DNA of 64,000 nt, taken from sequence record CP054387.1. One strand, 5' to 3'. Origin of the DNA: Escherichia phage CMS-2020a. Position 1 is the first letter of the stretch. Every line of letters begins with the position of its first letter. Made by a program: the position numbers. Of the stretch, positions 1-6,000 are shown piece after piece.

Positions 1-3000
1 ATGTCCACAAAAAATAAAAAAGGTAAAAATAACAAAGAAGTAGAAGATAACATCGACAACTTTGAAGAAGGTTCCCTTGAATTGTACACAGGGGAACTTG
101 TCCCTAATAGCAACAATACAGTCCAACCAATTGCGTTGATGCGACTGGGGTTGTTCGTCCCCACGCTTAAGGGAACAAAATACAGTAAACGTAACAAGCC
201 AAATGAGATCGATGCTTCAAAGGAGCTTGTCCAGCTCGAAGTAGCCCGTTCTGAAGGCTATTCCGATATCAAGATAACCGGTCCTCGTCTCGACATGGAT
301 CATGATTTCAAAACGTGGGTGGGCGTTGTGCGTTCGCTGGCAGAATACGGCGAACCTAACGGTCGTGTCGAGTTAAGCATCACGAAATTTGCTAAGTTTT
401 GTGGCTATCCATCGTCACAGATCCGCAAAACACTCCGCGACCGGCTTACAAACAGTCTTTTGAAGATCATGCGTACAACTCTGTCTTTCCAGAGAACGTA
501 TGAAGAAAAGAACGTCGACGGCTCTAACAAGATCTCGCTTCTGATGGTGCACCTCATCAATAGCGTGGACTACAACGAGCAGAAAGATACGGTGGTGTTC
601 TATGCAGAACCGAAGCTGGCCGAACTATATCGCTTTGACCATAAGGTTCTTTTGCAGTTAAAGGTTATCAATAAGCTACCACGCAAAGAAACAGCACAGG
701 CTCTGTACACCTTCATCGAAAGTCTTCCAACCAAGCCTGCGCCGGTATCGCTTGCTCGATTGCGTGCGCGACTCAATTTGAGTAGCAGGAATGTCAGCTC
801 GCAGAATCAGACTATACGTAACGGCTTAAAAGCTCTCCAAGATTTGGGCTATCTCGAATACAGCGAGATTAAGCGTGGGCGGTCGATCTATATCCAGATT
901 CACAGCCGCAATCCAAAACTCAAAGTCGCACCGCCAAAACCTGAAGACATCGAACCCAAAAAACCAGATGAGAAAGCTGGGGAAATTGATGCCAAACAGA
1001 ACATTATCAACAAGATAACCGAACTTTCGCAGAATTTGACGCCTGAAAATATCAAGATGATTGAGATCCTTTCCAATAGTCTCAAACTGCTTTGATATGC
1101 TGTCAGCGGTGAAATGTATGCTATCAGCGGCTATTTTTCTGAAAAGTATGCTGTGAACGGTTAAAGATATGCTACCAGCGGTATAGTGAGATGAACGTAT
1201 GCTGTGAGCGGTAAATCATCTATCACCACTCAATGCTCTGTCATACCTCCCCAGTGGTTACTAACCTCGAAGAGTGCATTCCATATAGGTTTGCGCTCAC
1301 TAACATTCTATTGCTATTGCGCTGATTGCTTGTAGTGAAAGGCATTTATTGCCTGCTACTCCCTGATAGAACGTATGCTGTCAGCGGTGTTTTATTGAGG
1401 AATTTTTGTTTGGATATGCTATCAGCGGTAATTAATGGCATATGTCAGACATTCGTATGCTGCCAGCGGTAATTTTGTTCTGGTTATACCCATACCGGTA
1501 CACATTATTCATGCAATGTCTTAAGTATGCTGTCAGCGGTAAAAAATCGAGTAAAGTATGCTGTGAGCGGTGAGATAGACTCTCGATATGCTATCAGCGG
1601 TAGTTGATTGTGTATGCTGTCAGCGGTGACGACTATGAAATATGACTGCGGAACGTGCCGCAGTCAGTTTGCATTTAGTGTATTTTCTTTAACAGACCCC
1701 AAAGTGTTCCGGCTTTTGTAGTCAGTTTTCCTGTTTCTGGATCGTACATACGCCATTCACGCCGCTGGTGGACGATATACCCATCTTCACGTTCCAGACG
1801 CTCAAGAATGCCAGGCTGCTTGAAACCCTTAGCACGCCAGTAGCCGCTTGTTTTCTCGATTTCCAGACCTGCCAGTGTTAATGCCATTACCCAACCTCCT
1901 TGCAGTCATCGAAAAGGTAGCTTTGCTGAGAAGCGTGAACGCCATAGAAGCCCTTGTATTTGTTGTATACGAAGTGGTCTTCTCCGACGCCGGTTAATTT
2001 GCCATTACGATTTGTGAGATATGGGGATGACAACACTCGATCGTCACGCACAACATAGAACTGGTCGCCGCTGTCTACGACCATCGCTCCATATGGTGCT
2101 TTTATGACGTCGGTAAGAGCGCCATTCTTAACGTCGGCTACAGACATTTCACACTGATAAACAGTGGTGTCGGCCACAACGATCGAAGAAAGAAACAACA
2201 GCGCGAATGGGATGGTCTTCATGCTGCCACCTCTTTGATTACATCAAATGCTGAATTAAATACGAGCACGATAGCCAAAGCGTTTATGACTACGTCGTGC
2301 ACCGGGGAAAAGACTTTACGAATGACACCAGTGAAAATGCAGTCGATGACAAAAGCTATTGAAACGATGAGTAACAAGTATTCAATAAAAATCTTCATGA
2401 TAGGTAGATACTAACTTATATAAACTTTACTGTAAACTCACTCAAAAGTGCTGATGCTTAAAATACGCTCAAGATGTTCAGCATCTTCATTACTGATTTG
2501 TTGAGTCTCTTCTACGTACCAACAGTTGCCGTTATGCCAACAAACACCATCATCATCAACCATCACTGAATCAGCGTCATGACCTGTATATTCAACAAGA
2601 GTACGCTGGATCAGCGCGTCAGTTTCTTCATCGTTAAGGCCATCGACTTTGACCATAAAAAGCGGAAACACGTCATAGACAGTGCTGGTAACGATTCGAA
2701 CTAAAACTCTCATGTGTTTTTCCTTTTGTGGTTAGTGTTTACTTATTTTGTTAGTTATGAATAGGCGATCAATCTTCTTGGTTAGGGAAAAACTGTTCAA
2801 TAACTCTGTCAACGGCTGTGTCTATATGGAGTAGATGCCACACAACCATATCTTTGCTTCCCATGCCTTGTGTGAATATCACGTCATACTTACGCCATGC
2901 GCAGTGGAACCAATATGCTGAGTCATCAATTGGTAAATCCTCTCCCGCCTCTTTGAAGTATTTCAGCAGCATTGCCTGCTCTGCCGTTGGCGTTGGACCT

Positions 3001-6000
3001 ATTTCCTGAGCGTACATACGGATGAATCGCTGCCAGTCTGTCTCGTCGGGGGTTGGATCTGGTGGGGTCATTTCTGCGATAGCGTTTCGTAGCTGATGCG
3101 CCCAATCAGGTTCAGGAAAGCCTTTTGCTACTTCATCATCAATAACATCCAGAGCCACGTTTGCGGCATCGTAGAGTTTCTTAATTGCTGCCATGTTTAC
3201 TTCTCCTTATAAATAGGAAAATAATCACCTTTGAAAAAATAAAGCAAAGATATATTCACTCCGATACAAGACGTTTATATGCTTCGATGTCTCGACGTGC
3301 TTCACCGAGTTTTCTTCTTAGGTCCATATTTTCTGATTCAAGTTTTTCAATGTTTTTTTGGTATCGGCCACGATGTTCTTCCCAGGCATCCTGATATGCC
3401 TTCATATATGTCGTATTAGCCTTTCTTTTTGCCTGACGAACCGCGTGGTGATTTTCTACAAACCAGTCAGGGTCGTTAAATGCTGCTCTTGCGCATTTAT
3501 ACCAATAATCGGTTGACTCTCTGTTTAACCAATGAATGGTGATAAATGGTAATCGAATAGACAGAATTTTTCGTTTGGAATCTCGCTCACCAAACATATG
3601 CCCTTTTTTTATCTTTAAACCGAACCCAGGTTGAATTAAAAGCATTGTCAGTACCTCAGATGCATTTATGGCAGTAATTCTTTACCGCTTTCCATTTTGG
3701 TGATAGAGACAATAGGATCATCGTTAATGCATGATTCTGTGCCTAATGCTGCTAACCCTTTACGCATAACCGTGCCCGCAACATACGCCTCAATCTCCGC
3801 CTTTCCAGATGAGACAATTTCATCCATTTGTTCCTGCATTAATTCGGTAGCAAAGCACAGATTTTCAGGAAGGTTAGCTACAGCAGATGCTAGTTTTCTA
3901 TATAGTTCTTCAAGGTCACGTTTTCCAGCTCTTCCTTTTTTCACAAGTTCACCTAGCTCTGAAACTTGCTGATTAAGTCGATCAATCTCACTATTCGTAG
4001 CGGCCTTTATTTGATCGTTGAATTTTTGCCGAATACTTTTTTGCTCGGCAATATCATGAACTCTAATTGAGTCTCCAATGGTTTTATATGAAATAGTGCA
4101 TGGCACACCTTCGCCCACTCCAAAACTGCTAACCATAGCAGCCCATTGTGCCTGGCTAAGTCTAATTTCAACTAAAGGCCGTCTATTGCAACTTCTTTGT
4201 GGGCGGGTTCGTTCATTGTCTAAGGACAGTTCCGCCTCGTAAACGCCTATTTCAATATAGTCTCTATGTTCCAGTTCTGAATCAAATAGGCGAATGCCAG
4301 TTGTGCTAACACGGCTTGTTTTCACAAGACCGAACGCTGGATGTGTTTGAATTTTTTCCCCATGTTTATTAAGGGTCGTTTTTGGTTCTTCAATTTTTCT
4401 TTTCATCTTATTAACCTCTATGCTTCATGCGTAAAGTTAAATGACAATTTTTTTTAATATCCGGCGTATTCGTATTCTTCATTTAGACCGTATTCTTGTG
4501 GAGTGATACCAGGACAACATAACTCAAAGGCGAACTTGCGCCATTTGATTTTTTCTTCTGACGATTGTTTGTTATTCGCCGGTGCAATGTAGTCATATTC
4601 CCATTTGCCGTTGCGAAGTAAAATGAATCCGCAGTTATTGCCGAAGTCTTCGTCTGCATAACGTATTACAAACTCAAGGTGCGGGAACTTTCTAGCCATC
4701 GCTTGATAAATTGGTTTTGGCATAGACCAGGCTGTTTCAAAGCGAATCACCAACTCACCACCAGTTGCGGCATGTCTTGCAAGACGTTTTTTATAGATTC
4801 GTTTTGCATATGCTCGAACGTGTGTATGGCGGAAATTATGGCCGTACTTAATACGTGTAGGGATACGTTTTACGGGCATTTCGATGTTGTAGGCATTCCA
4901 TTTTGTTCCCCAATTAGCTCGCGACCAGTCAAACCATGAGTAATAGCCATAGCGACGATAATTCTCAAGCCGCATAAGAGCCTGCTCTTTGATTTTGCGA
5001 ATTTCCTTGCGTGTCATTCCTGATTCACGCATAGCTAATTCGACCTGTTCTGGAGTCTTTAATTCACCGAACATGTGGTCGTAAACTGTTTCGCCCGCCA
5101 TTGCAGAGGCCATGCGCCTGATATGATTGTTTTCTTCCATTTCTATACTTTTCGGACGTCTGCAAATGGTATTAAAGTCAATTAGACCTTTTTTGTTAGT
5201 TATGGCACGTATGAAATCTAAGCGTTGTTTATTTGTACCACCTATGACTCGGATTTCGTTTGTAATGTGGTTGGGCATAATTAACTTAACCTTTTAACAA
5301 ATTGTTTTCTTGTGTGTGATAATAACGAGAATAAAACGGCGTCCAACTGGACGCCTGATCTTCTTAATGAGAGTTATTTCACTGTAATGAAAGGAGTGTT
5401 AGCCCCTTGAGTCATGTACTGCGGTAACTGGCCATTCCATTTATTGATGGCTTCCAGTTCCATAACGTTCGGGTTTTGACGCAGAGCTTCACCGCGCAGA
5501 CGAATGGCGTCTGCTTCTGCTTGCGCACGAGCACGGATAGCATCAGCTTCACCATTAGCCTGTTCACGTAGCATATTCGCCTCAGCTTTACGTTGTTCAA
5601 CTTCCTGCTGACGTTGCAGAGTACGCTGGTTAGCCGTTACTTTGGCGTTGATAGATTCAATGACGGTTTTTGGGTAATCAGGCTTTCCAACCCATGACAG
5701 GCTCAGTACCTCAATACCAACCGGAGACATCTCTTTCTGAATATCTTTCAGTGCGTTGTCCAGCAATTGCGCCTTACCACCGTCGATAAATGAGTCAGTG
5801 GTCATACGGCTGGCCAAACGGTTTAGAGAGTCGGCAATTTTCTGACGCAGATCTGATTCGGTGATATCGTCTACGCCTTTGCGATAGGTCTGGAACACCG
5901 TCGTTACCTTGTCACGATTAACCAGATACGCAACGCCAATTTTGTGACCAATAGCAGTACCGTCACTCATCTGGAATGTGAACGGTTCGTCGTAGGTCTT

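What the first reader, a model, noticed from the sequence alone, without database searches (positions are those of the whole stretch)
1675..5278. Run of eight uncharacterised small genes next to the origin, including a secreted protein and a membrane peptide
None of the ORFs from 1675 to 5278 shows a recognisable motif. They are tightly packed and several overlap by ATGA. The set includes a signal-peptide protein and a 59-aa hydrophobic peptide. Terminal blocks like this in phages often hold host-takeover or anti-defence genes.
Basis: inference. Interest (0 to 1): 0.4.

Follow-up and report, generated by a model that had tools for sequence, protein, structure and literature searches.

The report
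Accessory gene block beside phage-plasmid origin
The eight small genes are real but of unknown function; they sit in a common SSU5-type phage-plasmid and form three separate layers, one of which is a universally conserved three-gene envelope operon that a relative switches on strongly inside macrophages.

Summary
The window is an SSU5-family phage-plasmid, identical over the first 8 kb to p09EL50 of E. coli O104:H4 and to Shigella sonnei plasmids. The eight minus-strand genes next to repA and its 12 iterons are real and under purifying selection. No profile assigns them a replication, structural or known defence role.

The run is not one block and it is not terminal.

1. O3-O2-O1 (2398-1675) encodes a 2-TM peptide, a periplasmic protein and a P1 Cra-like protein. 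It is a translationally coupled mini-operon present in more than 800 plasmids, including Y. pestis pMT1. It has its own conserved promoter and terminator, and a 20-bp palindromic operator shared with the capsid, tail, SSB and SPFH promoters. In published RNA-seq of the near-identical Cyrano it is silent in LB and is the most macrophage-induced unit.
2. O5-O4 are conserved acidic proteins that stay silent in the lysogen.
3. O8-O7-O6 is clade-restricted cargo in a recombining slot. O8 is a YubB/DUF1281/Api92-fold protein. O7 belongs to a large phage early-gene family with no Pfam model. O6 is a lambdoid nin-region gene.

An anti-defence role is neither shown nor excluded. Overall this is an ordinary kind of feature with one worthwhile lead.

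The parts
1..1095 (+). repA (Rep3-type plasmid replication initiator), 5' end cut by the window start. Context only.
   Evidence: Pfam Rep3_N. Annotated as a RepB-family initiator in NC_018651.1.
1096..1626 (-). Origin iterons: 12 copies of CCGCTGACAGCATA in two clusters (1096-1211 and 1374-1626).
   Evidence: 12 matches against 0.35 expected by chance; none of 100 shuffles reaches 12.
1643..1666 (.). Hairpin with a 9-bp stem and 6 G-C pairs, directly after O1. Terminator-like; closes the O3-O2-O1 unit.
   Evidence: Terminator scan.
1675..1887 (-). O1: 70 aa, basic (net +4), cytoplasmic, P1 Cra-like. The most conserved gene of the block.
   Evidence: phrog_804 E 6.5e-34. 43.5% identity to P1 Cra over 62 aa, E 1e-4. 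94% aa identity to SSU5 with dN/dS 0.03.
1887..2222 (-). O2: 111 aa, Sec signal peptide with a VVA|D cleavage site, two cysteines; a periplasmic protein. Its stop overlaps the O1 start (TAATG).
   Evidence: phrog_2077 E 9e-64. Found in 811 PLSDB plasmids.
2219..2398 (-). O3: 59 aa, two hydrophobic helices, no Shine-Dalgarno sequence. Its stop overlaps the O2 start (ATGA).
   Evidence: phrog_2535 E 4e-31. The 59-codon frame is kept in SSU5 and in Klebsiella elements, with pN 0.16 vs pS 0.86.
2397..2436 (-). Two overlapping sigma-70-like hexamer pairs (TTTACA-17-TAGTAT and TTTATA-16-TATCAT) in the O4-O3 gap. Inferred promoter of O3-O2-O1, giving a very short or absent leader.
   Evidence: Promoter scan (the scan alone is not significant). 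The last 27 nt before the ATG are identical in SSU5 and 24/27 identical in a Klebsiella element whose upstream gene differs. In Cyrano RNA-seq expression jumps between the O4 and O3 homologues.
2400..2419 (.). One copy of a dispersed 20-bp imperfect palindrome (consensus ATAAGTNAGT.ACTNACTTAT) lying over the -10 region and leader of the O3 promoter. Inferred operator.
   Evidence: 7 matches in the window with up to 3 mismatches, against 0.03 expected. Palindromy of the unsearched half and positional conservation in relatives.
2438..2713 (-). O4: 91 aa, strongly acidic (net -14).
   Evidence: phrog_2209 E 2e-56. Charge. Present in 62 of 77 related loci. The Cyrano homologue is low in all conditions.
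2769..3194 (-). O5: 141 aa, acidic (net -14), Pfam DUF7238.
   Evidence: PF23885 E 5e-38. Present in 61 of 77 related loci. The Cyrano homologue is silent.
3256..3645 (-). O6: 129 aa, basic, C-terminal coiled coil. Homologue of a lambdoid gene that sits between ninE and ninF.
   Evidence: 82% nt identity to HK629, Stx phages and Gally. HK629 gp55 gene context. About 80% aa identity. phrog_1511.
3666..4406 (-). O7: 246 aa. N-terminal beta domain (motifs THPAFG, SxAQWAxxVSS, GVPCT) followed by a long helical hairpin. Member of a large phage family with no Pfam model.
   Evidence: AlphaFold2 pLDDT 81. 4090 representative clusters at E <= 1e-3. No Pfam hit in 25 members. phrog_6452.
4454..5278 (-). 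O8: 274 aa, basic (net +15), YubB/DUF1281/Api92-fold protein. Invariant MPNH N-terminus, WGTKWNAY, TAW and ADEDxGxNxG motifs.
5279..5337 (-). Leader between the SPFH terminator and O8. In Cyrano the same leader sits directly in front of O5, so it marks the insertion point of the O8-O7-O6 cargo.
   Evidence: The blastn break-points overlap by 14 nt.
5338..5355 (-). Intrinsic-terminator-like hairpin (7 bp, 6 G-C pairs, GTTTTATT tail) after the SPFH gene. Separates the SPFH cassette from O8.
   Evidence: In Cyrano expression falls from SPFH (7.3) to the O5 homologue (4.1) in macrophages.
5374..6496 (-). Neighbouring autonomous cassette (context). It comprises a terminator at 6476-6496, a promoter TTGAAA-17-TATTAT at 6438-6466 with the same palindrome at 6441-6460 in its spacer, a 66-aa 2-TM protein (6208-6408) and an SPFH lipoprotein (5374-6204).
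   Evidence: Co-induced with the O3-O2-O1 homologues in Cyrano.

Best explanation
The run is the accessory region between the plasmid origin and the recombination genes of an SSU5-family phage-plasmid. It has three layers.

(1) O3-O2-O1 is a core mini-operon of the whole SSU5/pHCM2/pMT1 supergroup.
- Shown: it has a conserved promoter-like region, translational coupling and a terminator-like hairpin.
- Shown: its products are a 2-TM inner-membrane peptide, a Sec-exported periplasmic protein and a small basic Cra-like cytoplasmic protein.
- Shown: a 20-bp palindrome overlaps its -10 region and leader. The same palindrome recurs at the promoters of the SPFH cassette, the gp32-like SSB gene and the scaffold/capsid operon, and in weaker copies upstream of the tail and portal genes.
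- Shown in the 99-100% identical Cyrano homologues: the operon is silent in LB and becomes the most strongly induced unit inside macrophages, in step with the tail and capsid genes. The adjacent RecA, exonuclease, SSB and DnaE genes stay flat.
- Inferred: a dimeric phage-plasmid regulator holds the operon off in the quiet lysogen, most likely a repressor because the site lies over the -10 region and transcription start. The operon fires when that regulator is relieved. Its products then act at the cell envelope, most likely to exclude superinfecting phage or to control lysis and envelope state, in the manner of T4 Imm/Sp or RI/RIII.

(2) O5-O4 are widely but not universally conserved acidic proteins with no promoter of their own. 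They are silent in the lysogen, and I infer they are lytic-cycle accessory proteins.

(3) O8-O7-O6 is clade-restricted cargo, swapped in and out by recombination at short repeated leader sequences. It is built from phage early-gene families of unknown function. O8 has enzyme-like invariant residues.
For: Identity of the element.

Real genes under purifying selection.

Layering across 77 related loci:
- O4 is in 62 loci and O5 in 61.
- The 66-aa membrane gene is in 46 loci and SPFH in 45.
- NinX is in 23 loci, O8 in 8, O7 in 8-9 and O6 in 6.
- The distance from the RecA end to the O3 start ranges from 538 to 4908 nt.
- O3-O2-O1 is in every locus that reaches the origin, except one where O3 fell below the matching threshold.

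Breadth of the trio: it keeps the same gene lengths and overlaps in a Klebsiella element that lacks O4-O8 and SPFH. O2 occurs in 811 plasmids including Y. pestis pMT1.

Promoter and terminator.

Operator:
- The 20-bp pattern gives 7 hits against 0.03 expected.
- The 11-nt core gives 13 hits against 3.35 expected.
- The unsearched half matches the palindromic ideal at 5.8 of 9 positions, against 2.45 for random sequence.
- The sites are positionally conserved in Cyrano, SSU5, Klebsiella elements, pMT1 and pHCM2.

Expression (S1 Table of PMC9928086; values are log2(fpkm+5)):
- CYRAN_60/61/62 read 2.3/2.5/3.7 in LB and 8.6/8.4/8.9 at 6 h in macrophages.
- The macrophage-versus-medium differences of 5.27 and 5.38 are the two largest among the 123 Cyrano genes listed.
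- RecA stays near 4 and DnaE near 4.5. The O5 homologue stays at or below 4.2.

Cargo junctions.

O6 is a nin-region gene. Its Gally homologue is silent in the lysogen.

O7 and O8 families and their phage early-region contexts.
Against: - No function has been demonstrated for any of the eight proteins. The envelope mechanism rests on predicted localisation and on analogy.
- The RNA-seq comes from a relative, not this element. It has two replicates per condition, is bulk data and the samples contain human RNA. It cannot tell moderate expression in all cells from a small subpopulation entering the lytic cycle.
- The regulator that binds the palindrome is not identified. An activator is not excluded.
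- The promoter scan on its own is not above chance (8 sites found, 11.7 expected).
- The operator sits in a different register at the O3 promoter (over the -10 region and leader) than at the SPFH and capsid promoters (in the spacer).
- No promoter was found for O8-O4.
Confidence: 0.55

Rival explanations
1. Anti-defence or host-takeover island. Under this reading the block, or at least O4-O8, encodes inhibitors of host immunity or host processes that are made early after infection or induction.
For: - The slot is variable and recombines at repeated leader sequences.
- One relative carries a HEC-07 defence candidate in the same slot (PADLOC E 5.5e-30).
- O4 and O5 each have a net charge of -14, as DNA-mimic inhibitors often do.
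- The O7 and O8 families lie in early-gene arrays of other phages, next to SSB, a RecA-like ATPase or an N6 methyltransferase.
- O8 relatives are named after YubB in UniProt. From my own memory, not tested here, YubB is a gene of the plasmid leading region, where anti-defence genes cluster (PMC11541004).
Against: - No hit to any known defence protein. No anti-defence profile library was available to test against.
- The published DefenseFinder survey finds only Rad in these elements, and Rad is none of these ORFs.
- Acidity is weak evidence on its own.
- O1-O3 are envelope or small basic proteins, not obvious inhibitors.
- The block is not terminal.
Confidence: 0.2
2. O3-O2-O1 is a stress-responsive lysogenic-conversion (moron-type) module. 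Under this reading it benefits the host under envelope or intracellular stress, and it is expressed in all lysogens without entry into the lytic cycle.
For: - It has an autonomous promoter and terminator.
- It is induced inside macrophages while the replication genes stay flat, and the paper reports no Cyrano virions above background there.
- It is co-induced with the SPFH lipoprotein cassette.
- It is kept in pMT1 of Y. pestis and pHCM2 of S. Typhi.
Against: - It shares its operator with the capsid, tail, portal and SSB promoters, and its expression profile follows the tail gene. That pattern fits derepression of the phage regulon better than a host stress signal.
- It is completely silent in LB.
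- PhoP-box-like and LexA-box-like sequences that I looked for by eye are absent or not conserved.
Confidence: 0.15
3. O3-O2-O1, or O1 alone, is a plasmid-maintenance or copy-control accessory of the adjacent origin. Cra-like proteins might assist a DNA transaction, as their position next to cre/lox in P1 could suggest.
For: - The position beside the iterons is invariant in every related element examined.
- O1 is small, basic and the most conserved protein of the block.
- Cra homologues occur in two unrelated phage-plasmid families, P1 and SSU5.
Against: - O2 and O3 are envelope proteins that are translationally coupled to O1.
- repA transcript levels do not follow the operon (7.0 to 8.3 against 2.3 to 8.6).
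- No DNA-binding domain was detected in O1.
- No cre or lox lies nearby.
Confidence: 0.08
4. Some of the ORFs, especially the unannotated O3 that lacks a Shine-Dalgarno sequence, are not genes.
For: RefSeq PGAP does not call O3 in p09EL50. O3 has no Shine-Dalgarno sequence.
Against: - The 59-codon frame, the ATGA overlap and the two hydrophobic helices are kept in SSU5, Klebsiella elements and pMT1 at 46-68% aa identity, with pN far below pS.
- phrog_2535 matches at E 4e-31.
- The Cyrano homologue is transcribed at the same level as O2.
Confidence: 0.02

Closest known systems
Bacteriophage P1 Cra (cre-associated protein; phrog_804)
   Same: O1 has the same size class (70 vs 73 aa), shows 43.5% identity over 62 residues, and is also carried by a phage-plasmid.
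   Different: In P1, cra lies directly upstream of cre and lox. Here O1 is the last gene of a membrane/periplasm operon next to the repA iterons, with no cre nearby. The function of Cra is unknown in both cases.
T4 Imm/Sp superinfection exclusion and RI/RIII lysis inhibition (small membrane, periplasmic and cytoplasmic proteins)
   Same: The architecture is similar: a small polytopic inner-membrane peptide, a roughly 100-aa Sec-exported periplasmic protein and a small cytoplasmic protein. All are switched on with the phage programme.
   Different: No sequence or fold relationship was shown, and structure prediction was not possible for O1-O3. The T4 genes are not one operon. This is an analogy of how it might work, not a claim of membership.
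Lambdoid nin region (genes between replication gene P and antiterminator Q; NinX/DUF2591; HK629 gp55)
   Same: O6 is about 80% identical to the gene between ninE and ninF. Relatives carry NinX in the same slot. As in lambda, small non-essential genes follow the replication/recombination genes and are exchanged as cassettes.
   Different: The replicon and neighbouring genes are different. No Q-type antiterminator context exists here, and the junctions are repeated leader or ribosome-binding-site segments specific to this family.
Api92 / DUF1281 / YubB ferredoxin-like family (PDB 2IJR)
   Different: Sequence identity is only 15%. The N-terminal DUF1281 model was not detected. O8 has an extra basic helical insert (about residues 135-172) that about half of the 30 aligned homologues lack. 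The family has no known function.
P1 C1 repressor with operators dispersed over the genome
   Same: A single short operator-like sequence recurs at many promoters across the element, including accessory operons.
   Different: Here the site is a 20-bp palindrome, whereas the P1 operators are asymmetric 17-mers (from memory). The binding protein is unknown. Sites also precede virion genes. This element has not been described in any paper I could find.
Prophage morons (for example lambda bor and lom): autonomous promoter-gene-terminator cassettes
   Same: The O3-O2-O1 unit and the SPFH cassette are each bounded by a promoter-like site and a hairpin, and are expressed independently of their neighbours.
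   Different: They are not constitutively expressed in the lysogen. The authors' moron screen in LB did not list them. Their control element is shared with lytic genes.

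Membership tests
P1 Cra family (phrog_804) | Sequence similarity to P1 Cra over most of its length | tested here: met
   tblastn gives 43.5% identity over residues 8-69, E 1e-4. phrog_804 E 6.5e-34, full length.
P1 Cra family (phrog_804) | Position immediately upstream of cre/lox ('cre-associated') | tested here: not met
   O1 is followed by a hairpin, the iterons and repA. There is no cre in the neighbourhood.
Pfam DUF7238 (PF23885) | Score above the curated gathering threshold | tested here: met
   O5 scores 130.1 bits against a cut-off of 27, covering profile positions 2-111 of 112.
DUF1281 / Api92 / YubB | C-terminal ferredoxin-like domain (PF18406) above threshold | tested here: met
   O8 scores 57.8 bits against a cut-off of 22.8. 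All 31 aligned homologues fall in phrog_12644.
DUF1281 / Api92 / YubB | Fold similarity to the solved Api92 structure 2IJR | tested here: met
DUF1281 / Api92 / YubB | N-terminal DUF1281 domain (PF06924) | tested here: not met
   No PF06924 hit at E <= 1. A profile of 31 homologues did not find the 2IJR sequence at E <= 1.
Lambdoid nin-region ORF (HK629 gp55; phrog_1511) | Sequence identity to the gene between ninE and ninF | tested here: met
   82% nt identity. About 80% aa identity over 126 residues. phrog_1511 E 2.7e-76.
Lambdoid nin-region ORF (HK629 gp55; phrog_1511) | Location in a nin region between replication genes and Q | tested here: not met
   Here the gene lies between O7 and O5 of a phage-plasmid, with no ninE, ninF or Q nearby.
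Known anti-phage defence systems (PADLOC-DB) | Profile hit to a defence protein | tested here: not met
   Best E-values are 0.007-0.009, which is noise.
Known anti-defence proteins (e.g. Rad, the anti-retron protein reported in these phage-plasmids) | Rad: about 189 aa with a TOPRIM/primase-like domain | tested here: not met
   None of the eight ORFs has that size or domain. Other anti-defence families could not be tested because no such library was available.
Moron (autonomous cassette expressed from the prophage) | Own promoter and terminator | tested here: inconclusive
   The promoter-like hexamers are conserved and a hairpin lies at 1643-1666. No transcript ends have been mapped.
Moron (autonomous cassette expressed from the prophage) | Expressed in the lysogen independently of lytic genes | tested here: inconclusive
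   In Cyrano the operon is silent in LB and strongly on in macrophages, with replication genes flat but capsid and tail genes also up.
T4 Imm/Sp-type superinfection exclusion | Small polytopic membrane protein plus a signal-peptide periplasmic protein | tested here: met
   Hydropathy and signal-peptide features of O3 and O2. This is a prediction only.
T4 Imm/Sp-type superinfection exclusion | Homology to Imm or Sp, and an exclusion phenotype | not testable with these tools
   No Pfam or PDB hit for O2 or O3. The phenotype needs an experiment.
Dispersed-operator regulon | The same operator-like sequence at several promoters, above chance and conserved in relatives | tested here: met
   7 hits against 0.03 expected. 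Conserved positions in five relatives.
Dispersed-operator regulon | An identified protein that binds the site | not testable with these tools
   The candidates are inferred only: the 128-aa repressor-like ORF at 18250-18636(+), and the homologue of Cyrano's LexA-like S24 protein, which I did not locate in this window.

The most novel reading that the evidence does not exclude
O3-O2-O1 would be a previously unrecognised universal function of the SSU5/pHCM2/pMT1 phage-plasmid supergroup. It would be an operator-controlled envelope module (membrane peptide, periplasmic protein, Cra-like protein), switched on together with the SPFH cassette inside macrophages. It would alter the host envelope either to exclude other phages or to aid intracellular survival of pathogens such as AIEC, S. 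Typhi, S. sonnei, K. pneumoniae and Y. pestis. It would be governed by an undescribed 20-bp palindromic operator regulon. A secondary novel reading is that O8 is an enzyme using an invariant N-terminal proline and an acidic ADED motif.
Probability: 0.2. Interest if true: 0.6.

Novelty: new member of a known kind. Interest (0 to 1): 0.38.

Why it matters
SSU5-type phage-plasmids are common in clinical Enterobacterales, including XDR Shigella sonnei, S. Typhi (pHCM2), K. pneumoniae and Y. pestis (pMT1), yet they are usually treated as cryptic. If the conserved three-gene operon and the neighbouring SPFH cassette really respond to the intracellular environment, or to derepression through a shared operator, two things follow. 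They would provide a handle on how these elements are regulated. They would also point to a function that every member keeps next to its origin. The variable slot beside the operon is a defined place to look for new cargo, including defence or anti-defence genes. As it stands, the block is an ordinary set of hypothetical accessory genes, and no function has been shown.

Tried and rejected
- Sequence searches of O1, O2, O5, O6, O7, O8 and of an O8 family profile against all PDB chains gave nothing below E 0.07.
- NCBIfam and PADLOC gave only noise.
- Rfam found no RNA family in 1-6600.
- Literature searches for DUF1281, Api92, DUF7238, YubB and PhiR41 found nothing on function.
- Rad, the anti-retron protein reported in S. 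sonnei SSU5 elements, is a 189-aa TOPRIM protein and is none of the eight ORFs.
- The pHCM2 antigens HCM2.0043 and HCM2.0069c, which are immunoreactive in typhoid carriers, do not appear to be these genes. This is judged from gene numbering in a pHCM2 that is collinear with this window, and was not checked directly.
- A PhoP-box-like direct repeat (AGTTTA spaced by 6 nt) in the O3 promoter has the wrong spacing and is not conserved in SSU5 or Klebsiella elements. No LexA box is present. Both were judged by eye.
- A simpler palindrome, TAAGTNCTTA, shared with the repressor region was not convincingly above chance (3 hits against 0.4 expected; 2 of 100 shuffles reach 3). I dropped it in favour of the 20-bp element.
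- Most small ORF clusters found in the variable slot of relatives were alternative-frame artefacts.

Full report
**What the element is.** The first 8 kb of the window are 100% identical to plasmid p09EL50 of E. coli O104:H4 2009EL-2050 and to about 108-kb plasmids of Shigella sonnei. In all, 704 PLSDB records match, and 671 of them are typed non-mobilizable. Among phage records, the window matches Escherichia phages CMS-2020a (99%), PhiR41_1 (98%) and Cyrano (96%), and Salmonella phage SSU5 (79%). It is therefore an SSU5-family phage-plasmid. Gene order around the finding runs as follows:
- repA (Rep3 type, plus strand);
- the iterons;
- a long minus-strand array, which read outward from the origin holds the eight ORFs, an SPFH lipoprotein, a 66-aa membrane protein, a RecA-like recombinase, a 5'-3' exonuclease, a gp32-like SSB, a UvsY-like protein and DnaE.

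**Check of the observation.**
- The eight ORFs exist at the stated coordinates on the minus strand.
- All eight match PHROG families of unknown function at E between 4e-31 and 8e-106.
- Against SSU5, O1-O5 show non-synonymous differences far below synonymous ones (O1 0.037/0.61, O2 0.17/0.73, O3 0.16/0.86, O4 0.16/0.69, O5 0.15/0.89). They are real protein-coding genes.
- The origin is real: 12 iteron copies against 0.35 expected by chance.
- O2 carries a Sec-type signal peptide and two cysteines. O3 is a 59-aa peptide with two hydrophobic helices.

Two details in the finding are wrong. Only one junction is an ATGA overlap (O3/O2). O2/O1 share one base (TAATG), and the remaining gaps are 20-61 nt. 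The block is also not terminal: in the SSU5 and Cyrano phage maps it lies mid-genome.

**What profiles and folds say.**
- Pfam places O5 in DUF7238 and the C-terminus of O8 in DUF1281_C, the 'ferredoxin-like domain in Api92-like protein'.
- O1 is a homologue of P1 Cra, a protein of unknown function (43.5% identity).
- O6 is about 80% identical to a gene that lies between ninE and ninF in HK629, Stx phages and Gally.
- NCBIfam, PADLOC and sequence searches of the PDB give nothing.

**The run has three layers.** I fetched 80 loci encoding a RecA at least 92% identical, added reference elements, and mapped the genes onto them.
- The trio O3-O2-O1 sits beside repA in every locus that reaches the origin, apart from one where O3 fell below the matching threshold.
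- O4 occurs in 62 of 77 loci and O5 in 61.
- The 66-aa membrane gene occurs in 46 loci and SPFH in 45.
- NinX occurs in 23, O8 in 8, O7 in 8-9 and O6 in 6.
- The distance from RecA to O3 ranges from 538 to 4908 nt.

A Klebsiella phage-plasmid keeps only the trio, with identical gene lengths (213, 336 and 180 nt) and the same overlaps. Y. pestis pMT1 has the SSU5 arrangement. O2 is found in 811 plasmid records, including Klebsiella 345, Escherichia 215, Enterobacter 92, Yersinia 63 and Salmonella 49.

The O8-O7-O6 DNA occurs nearly full-length in only 25 plasmid records. In Klebsiella elements an O7 homologue sits in the same slot without O8. One relative carries a full-length HEC-07 defence candidate in the slot (PADLOC E 5.5e-30).

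Break-points show how the cargo moves. Cyrano aligns to both sides of the O8-O6 insert with a 14-nt overlap, so the leader that precedes O8 here precedes O5 there. In p4_0.2, a 30-nt leader/ribosome-binding-site segment is repeated on both sides of NinX. I infer cassette exchange by recombination at short conserved leader sequences.

**The trio is its own transcription unit.** The 39-nt gap between O4 and O3 holds two overlapping sigma-70-like hexamer pairs, and O3 has no Shine-Dalgarno sequence. The scan by itself is not above chance. However, the last 27 nt before the O3 start codon are identical in SSU5 and 24/27 identical in a Klebsiella element whose upstream gene is different, while the O3 protein there is only 46% identical. 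A hairpin follows O1.

**Published expression data bear on this.** RNA-seq of E. coli LF82 carrying Cyrano is reported in S1 Table of PMC9928086. Cyrano's O1-O3 homologues are 99-100% identical to those here. Values below are log2(fpkm+5).

| Gene (homologue of) | LB overnight | Medium alone, 6 h | Macrophages, 1 h | Macrophages, 6 h |
|---|---|---|---|---|
| CYRAN_60 (O3) | 2.3 | 3.3 | 7.0 | 8.6 |
| CYRAN_61 (O2) | 2.5 | 3.1 | 6.2 | 8.4 |
| CYRAN_62 (O1) | 3.7 | 6.3 | 7.2 | 8.9 |

- By my reading of all 123 rows, CYRAN_61 and CYRAN_60 show the two largest macrophage-versus-medium differences (5.38 and 5.27).
- RecA (about 4), the exonuclease (about 2.7), SSB (3.2-5.2) and DnaE (about 4.5) stay essentially flat.
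- The O5 homologue stays at or below 4.2 and the O4 homologue at or below 5.7.
- The 66-aa/SPFH cassette also rises (7.7 and 7.3).
- The paper's moron screen used LB only and does not list or discuss these genes.

**A shared operator-like element.** The -10 region and leader of the O3 promoter (2400-2419) form one copy of a 20-bp imperfect palindrome, ATAAGTNAGT.ACTNACTTAT.
- With up to 3 mismatches there are 7 copies in the window against 0.03 expected.
- The 11-nt core with up to 1 mismatch gives 13 hits against 3.35 expected.
- In those hits, the nine positions not used in the search match the palindromic ideal at 5.8 of 9, against 2.45 ± 1.3 for random sequence.

The seven copies that pass the 3-mismatch test are all in intergenic DNA:
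- the trio promoter (2400-2419);
- the SPFH-cassette promoter, between its -35 and -10 elements (6441-6460);
- upstream of the gp32-like SSB gene (9961-9980);
- 23651-23670;
- 30607-30626;
- 47121-47140;
- upstream of the scaffold/capsid operon (58206-58225, a perfect match to the pattern).

Three weaker core hits, with more than 3 mismatches to the full pattern, lie at 26296-26315, upstream of the major tail gene (53619-53638) and upstream of the portal gene (59713-59732).

The sites keep their positions in Cyrano, SSU5, Klebsiella elements, pMT1 and pHCM2. In Cyrano, several of the genes downstream of these sites (the trio, SPFH, capsid and tail) rise markedly in macrophages; the SSB and portal genes barely move. 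I found no paper describing this element.

Because the site lies over the -10 region, the transcription start or the spacer, I infer a dimeric repressor with dispersed operators, similar in logic to P1 C1. An activator is not excluded.

**Most likely mechanism.**
- *Shown:* the anatomy, conservation, predicted localisation, the shared cis-element and the expression pattern in a near-identical relative.
- *Inferred:* the trio is kept off in the quiet lysogen and fires when the regulon is relieved. Its three products (inner membrane, periplasm, cytoplasm) then act on the envelope. I favour superinfection exclusion or lysis/envelope control by analogy with T4 Imm/Sp and RI/RIII.
- O5 and O4 (net charge -14 each) and the O8-O7-O6 cargo are lytic-cycle accessory genes of unknown function.
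- O7 and O8 relatives lie in early-gene arrays of other phages, next to SSB, a RecA-like ATPase, an N6 methyltransferase or int/xis.
- The Gally homologue of O6 is silent in the lysogen.

**Rivals.**
- An anti-defence island remains possible for O4-O8, but nothing tested here supports it directly.
- A host-benefit stress module fits the macrophage induction, but fits the shared operator less well.
- A copy-control role fits the invariant position beside the origin, but not the envelope proteins or the flat repA level.

**Caveats.**
- The RNA-seq is bulk data with two replicates, from a relative, and from samples containing human RNA. It cannot distinguish a lytic subpopulation from expression in all cells.
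- No transcript ends are mapped.
- The regulator is unidentified.
- No promoter was found for O8-O4.

**Verdict.** This is an ordinary class of feature: hypothetical accessory genes of a well-known and very common phage-plasmid, and the sequence is already in databases. The worthwhile leads are the universally conserved, separately regulated envelope operon and the dispersed palindromic operator that ties it to the phage regulon.

Noticed in passing
window 2400-2419, 6441-6460, 9961-9980, 23651-23670, 30607-30626, 47121-47140, 58206-58225; weaker copies at 26296-26315, 53619-53638, 59713-59732: A dispersed 20-bp imperfect palindrome (ATAAGTNAGT.ACTNACTTAT) lies in intergenic regions upstream of the trio, the SPFH cassette, SSB and the scaffold/capsid operon, with weaker copies upstream of the tail and portal genes. 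There are 7 hits against 0.03 expected. The positions are conserved in Cyrano, SSU5, Klebsiella elements, pMT1 and pHCM2. It looks like the operator of a genome-wide regulator, and I found no paper describing it.
   Followed up: partly
window 5338-6496 (minus strand): The 66-aa 2-TM protein and the SPFH lipoprotein (lipobox LTGC) form an autonomous cassette. It has a terminator at 6476-6496, a promoter TTGAAA-17-TATTAT at 6438-6466 and a terminator at 5338-5355. Its promoter closely resembles the scaffold/capsid promoter near 58200. The Cyrano homologues rise from about 2.3-3.7 in LB to 7.3-7.7 in macrophages. The cassette is absent from about 40% of related loci.
   Followed up: partly
L068 (IMGVR_UViG_3300011640_000018): ORF at positions 340-1932 of the RecA-end-to-O3 slot region extracted (region-relative, not locus, coordinates): One related phage-plasmid carries a 530-aa protein in the same variable slot. 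It matches the PADLOC candidate defence family HEC-07 over its full length (E 5.5e-30) and has no Pfam hit.
   Followed up: partly
window 30775-32478 (minus strand), in the 31-32 kb stretch with 29% G+C: A 567-aa ORF in a sharply AT-rich patch partly matches the PADLOC candidate defence family PDC-S49 (E 2.8e-22, residues 6-226). It is probably acquired cargo.
   Followed up: no
window 6501-7574, compared with Cyrano L002 5740-8079 and loci L072-L090: The RecA-like gene is 357 aa here but is annotated as 2340 nt in Cyrano. Many related loci align only from residue 65 onward, and one plasmid record lists a LAGLIDADG homing endonuclease somewhere in its matched 8-kb stretch. This suggests an intein or intron insertion near residue 64 of RecA in part of the family.
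   Followed up: no
window 3191-3220 and 5285-5298, compared with L005 and L002: Short leader/ribosome-binding-site segments are repeated at the borders of the NinX and O8-O7-O6 inserts (30 nt and 14 nt). This is consistent with cassette exchange by recombination at conserved intergenic sequences.
   Followed up: partly
window 21969-22535 (plus strand), in a patch with 52% G+C: A 188-aa ORF on the opposite strand, in a locally GC-rich stretch, has no Pfam or PADLOC hit. Its size is close to the 189-aa Rad anti-retron protein that a published survey reports in S. sonnei SSU5 elements. No TOPRIM domain was detected, and I did not locate Rad in the window.
   Followed up: partly
Cyrano RNA-seq table (PMC9928086, S1 Table): Besides the trio, the genes most induced in macrophages are HicAB, KacT and its antitoxin, the integrase, the small gene next to the repressor (CYRAN_46) and a LexA-like S24 protein (CYRAN_98). 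The paper does not discuss Cyrano's macrophage response.
   Followed up: no
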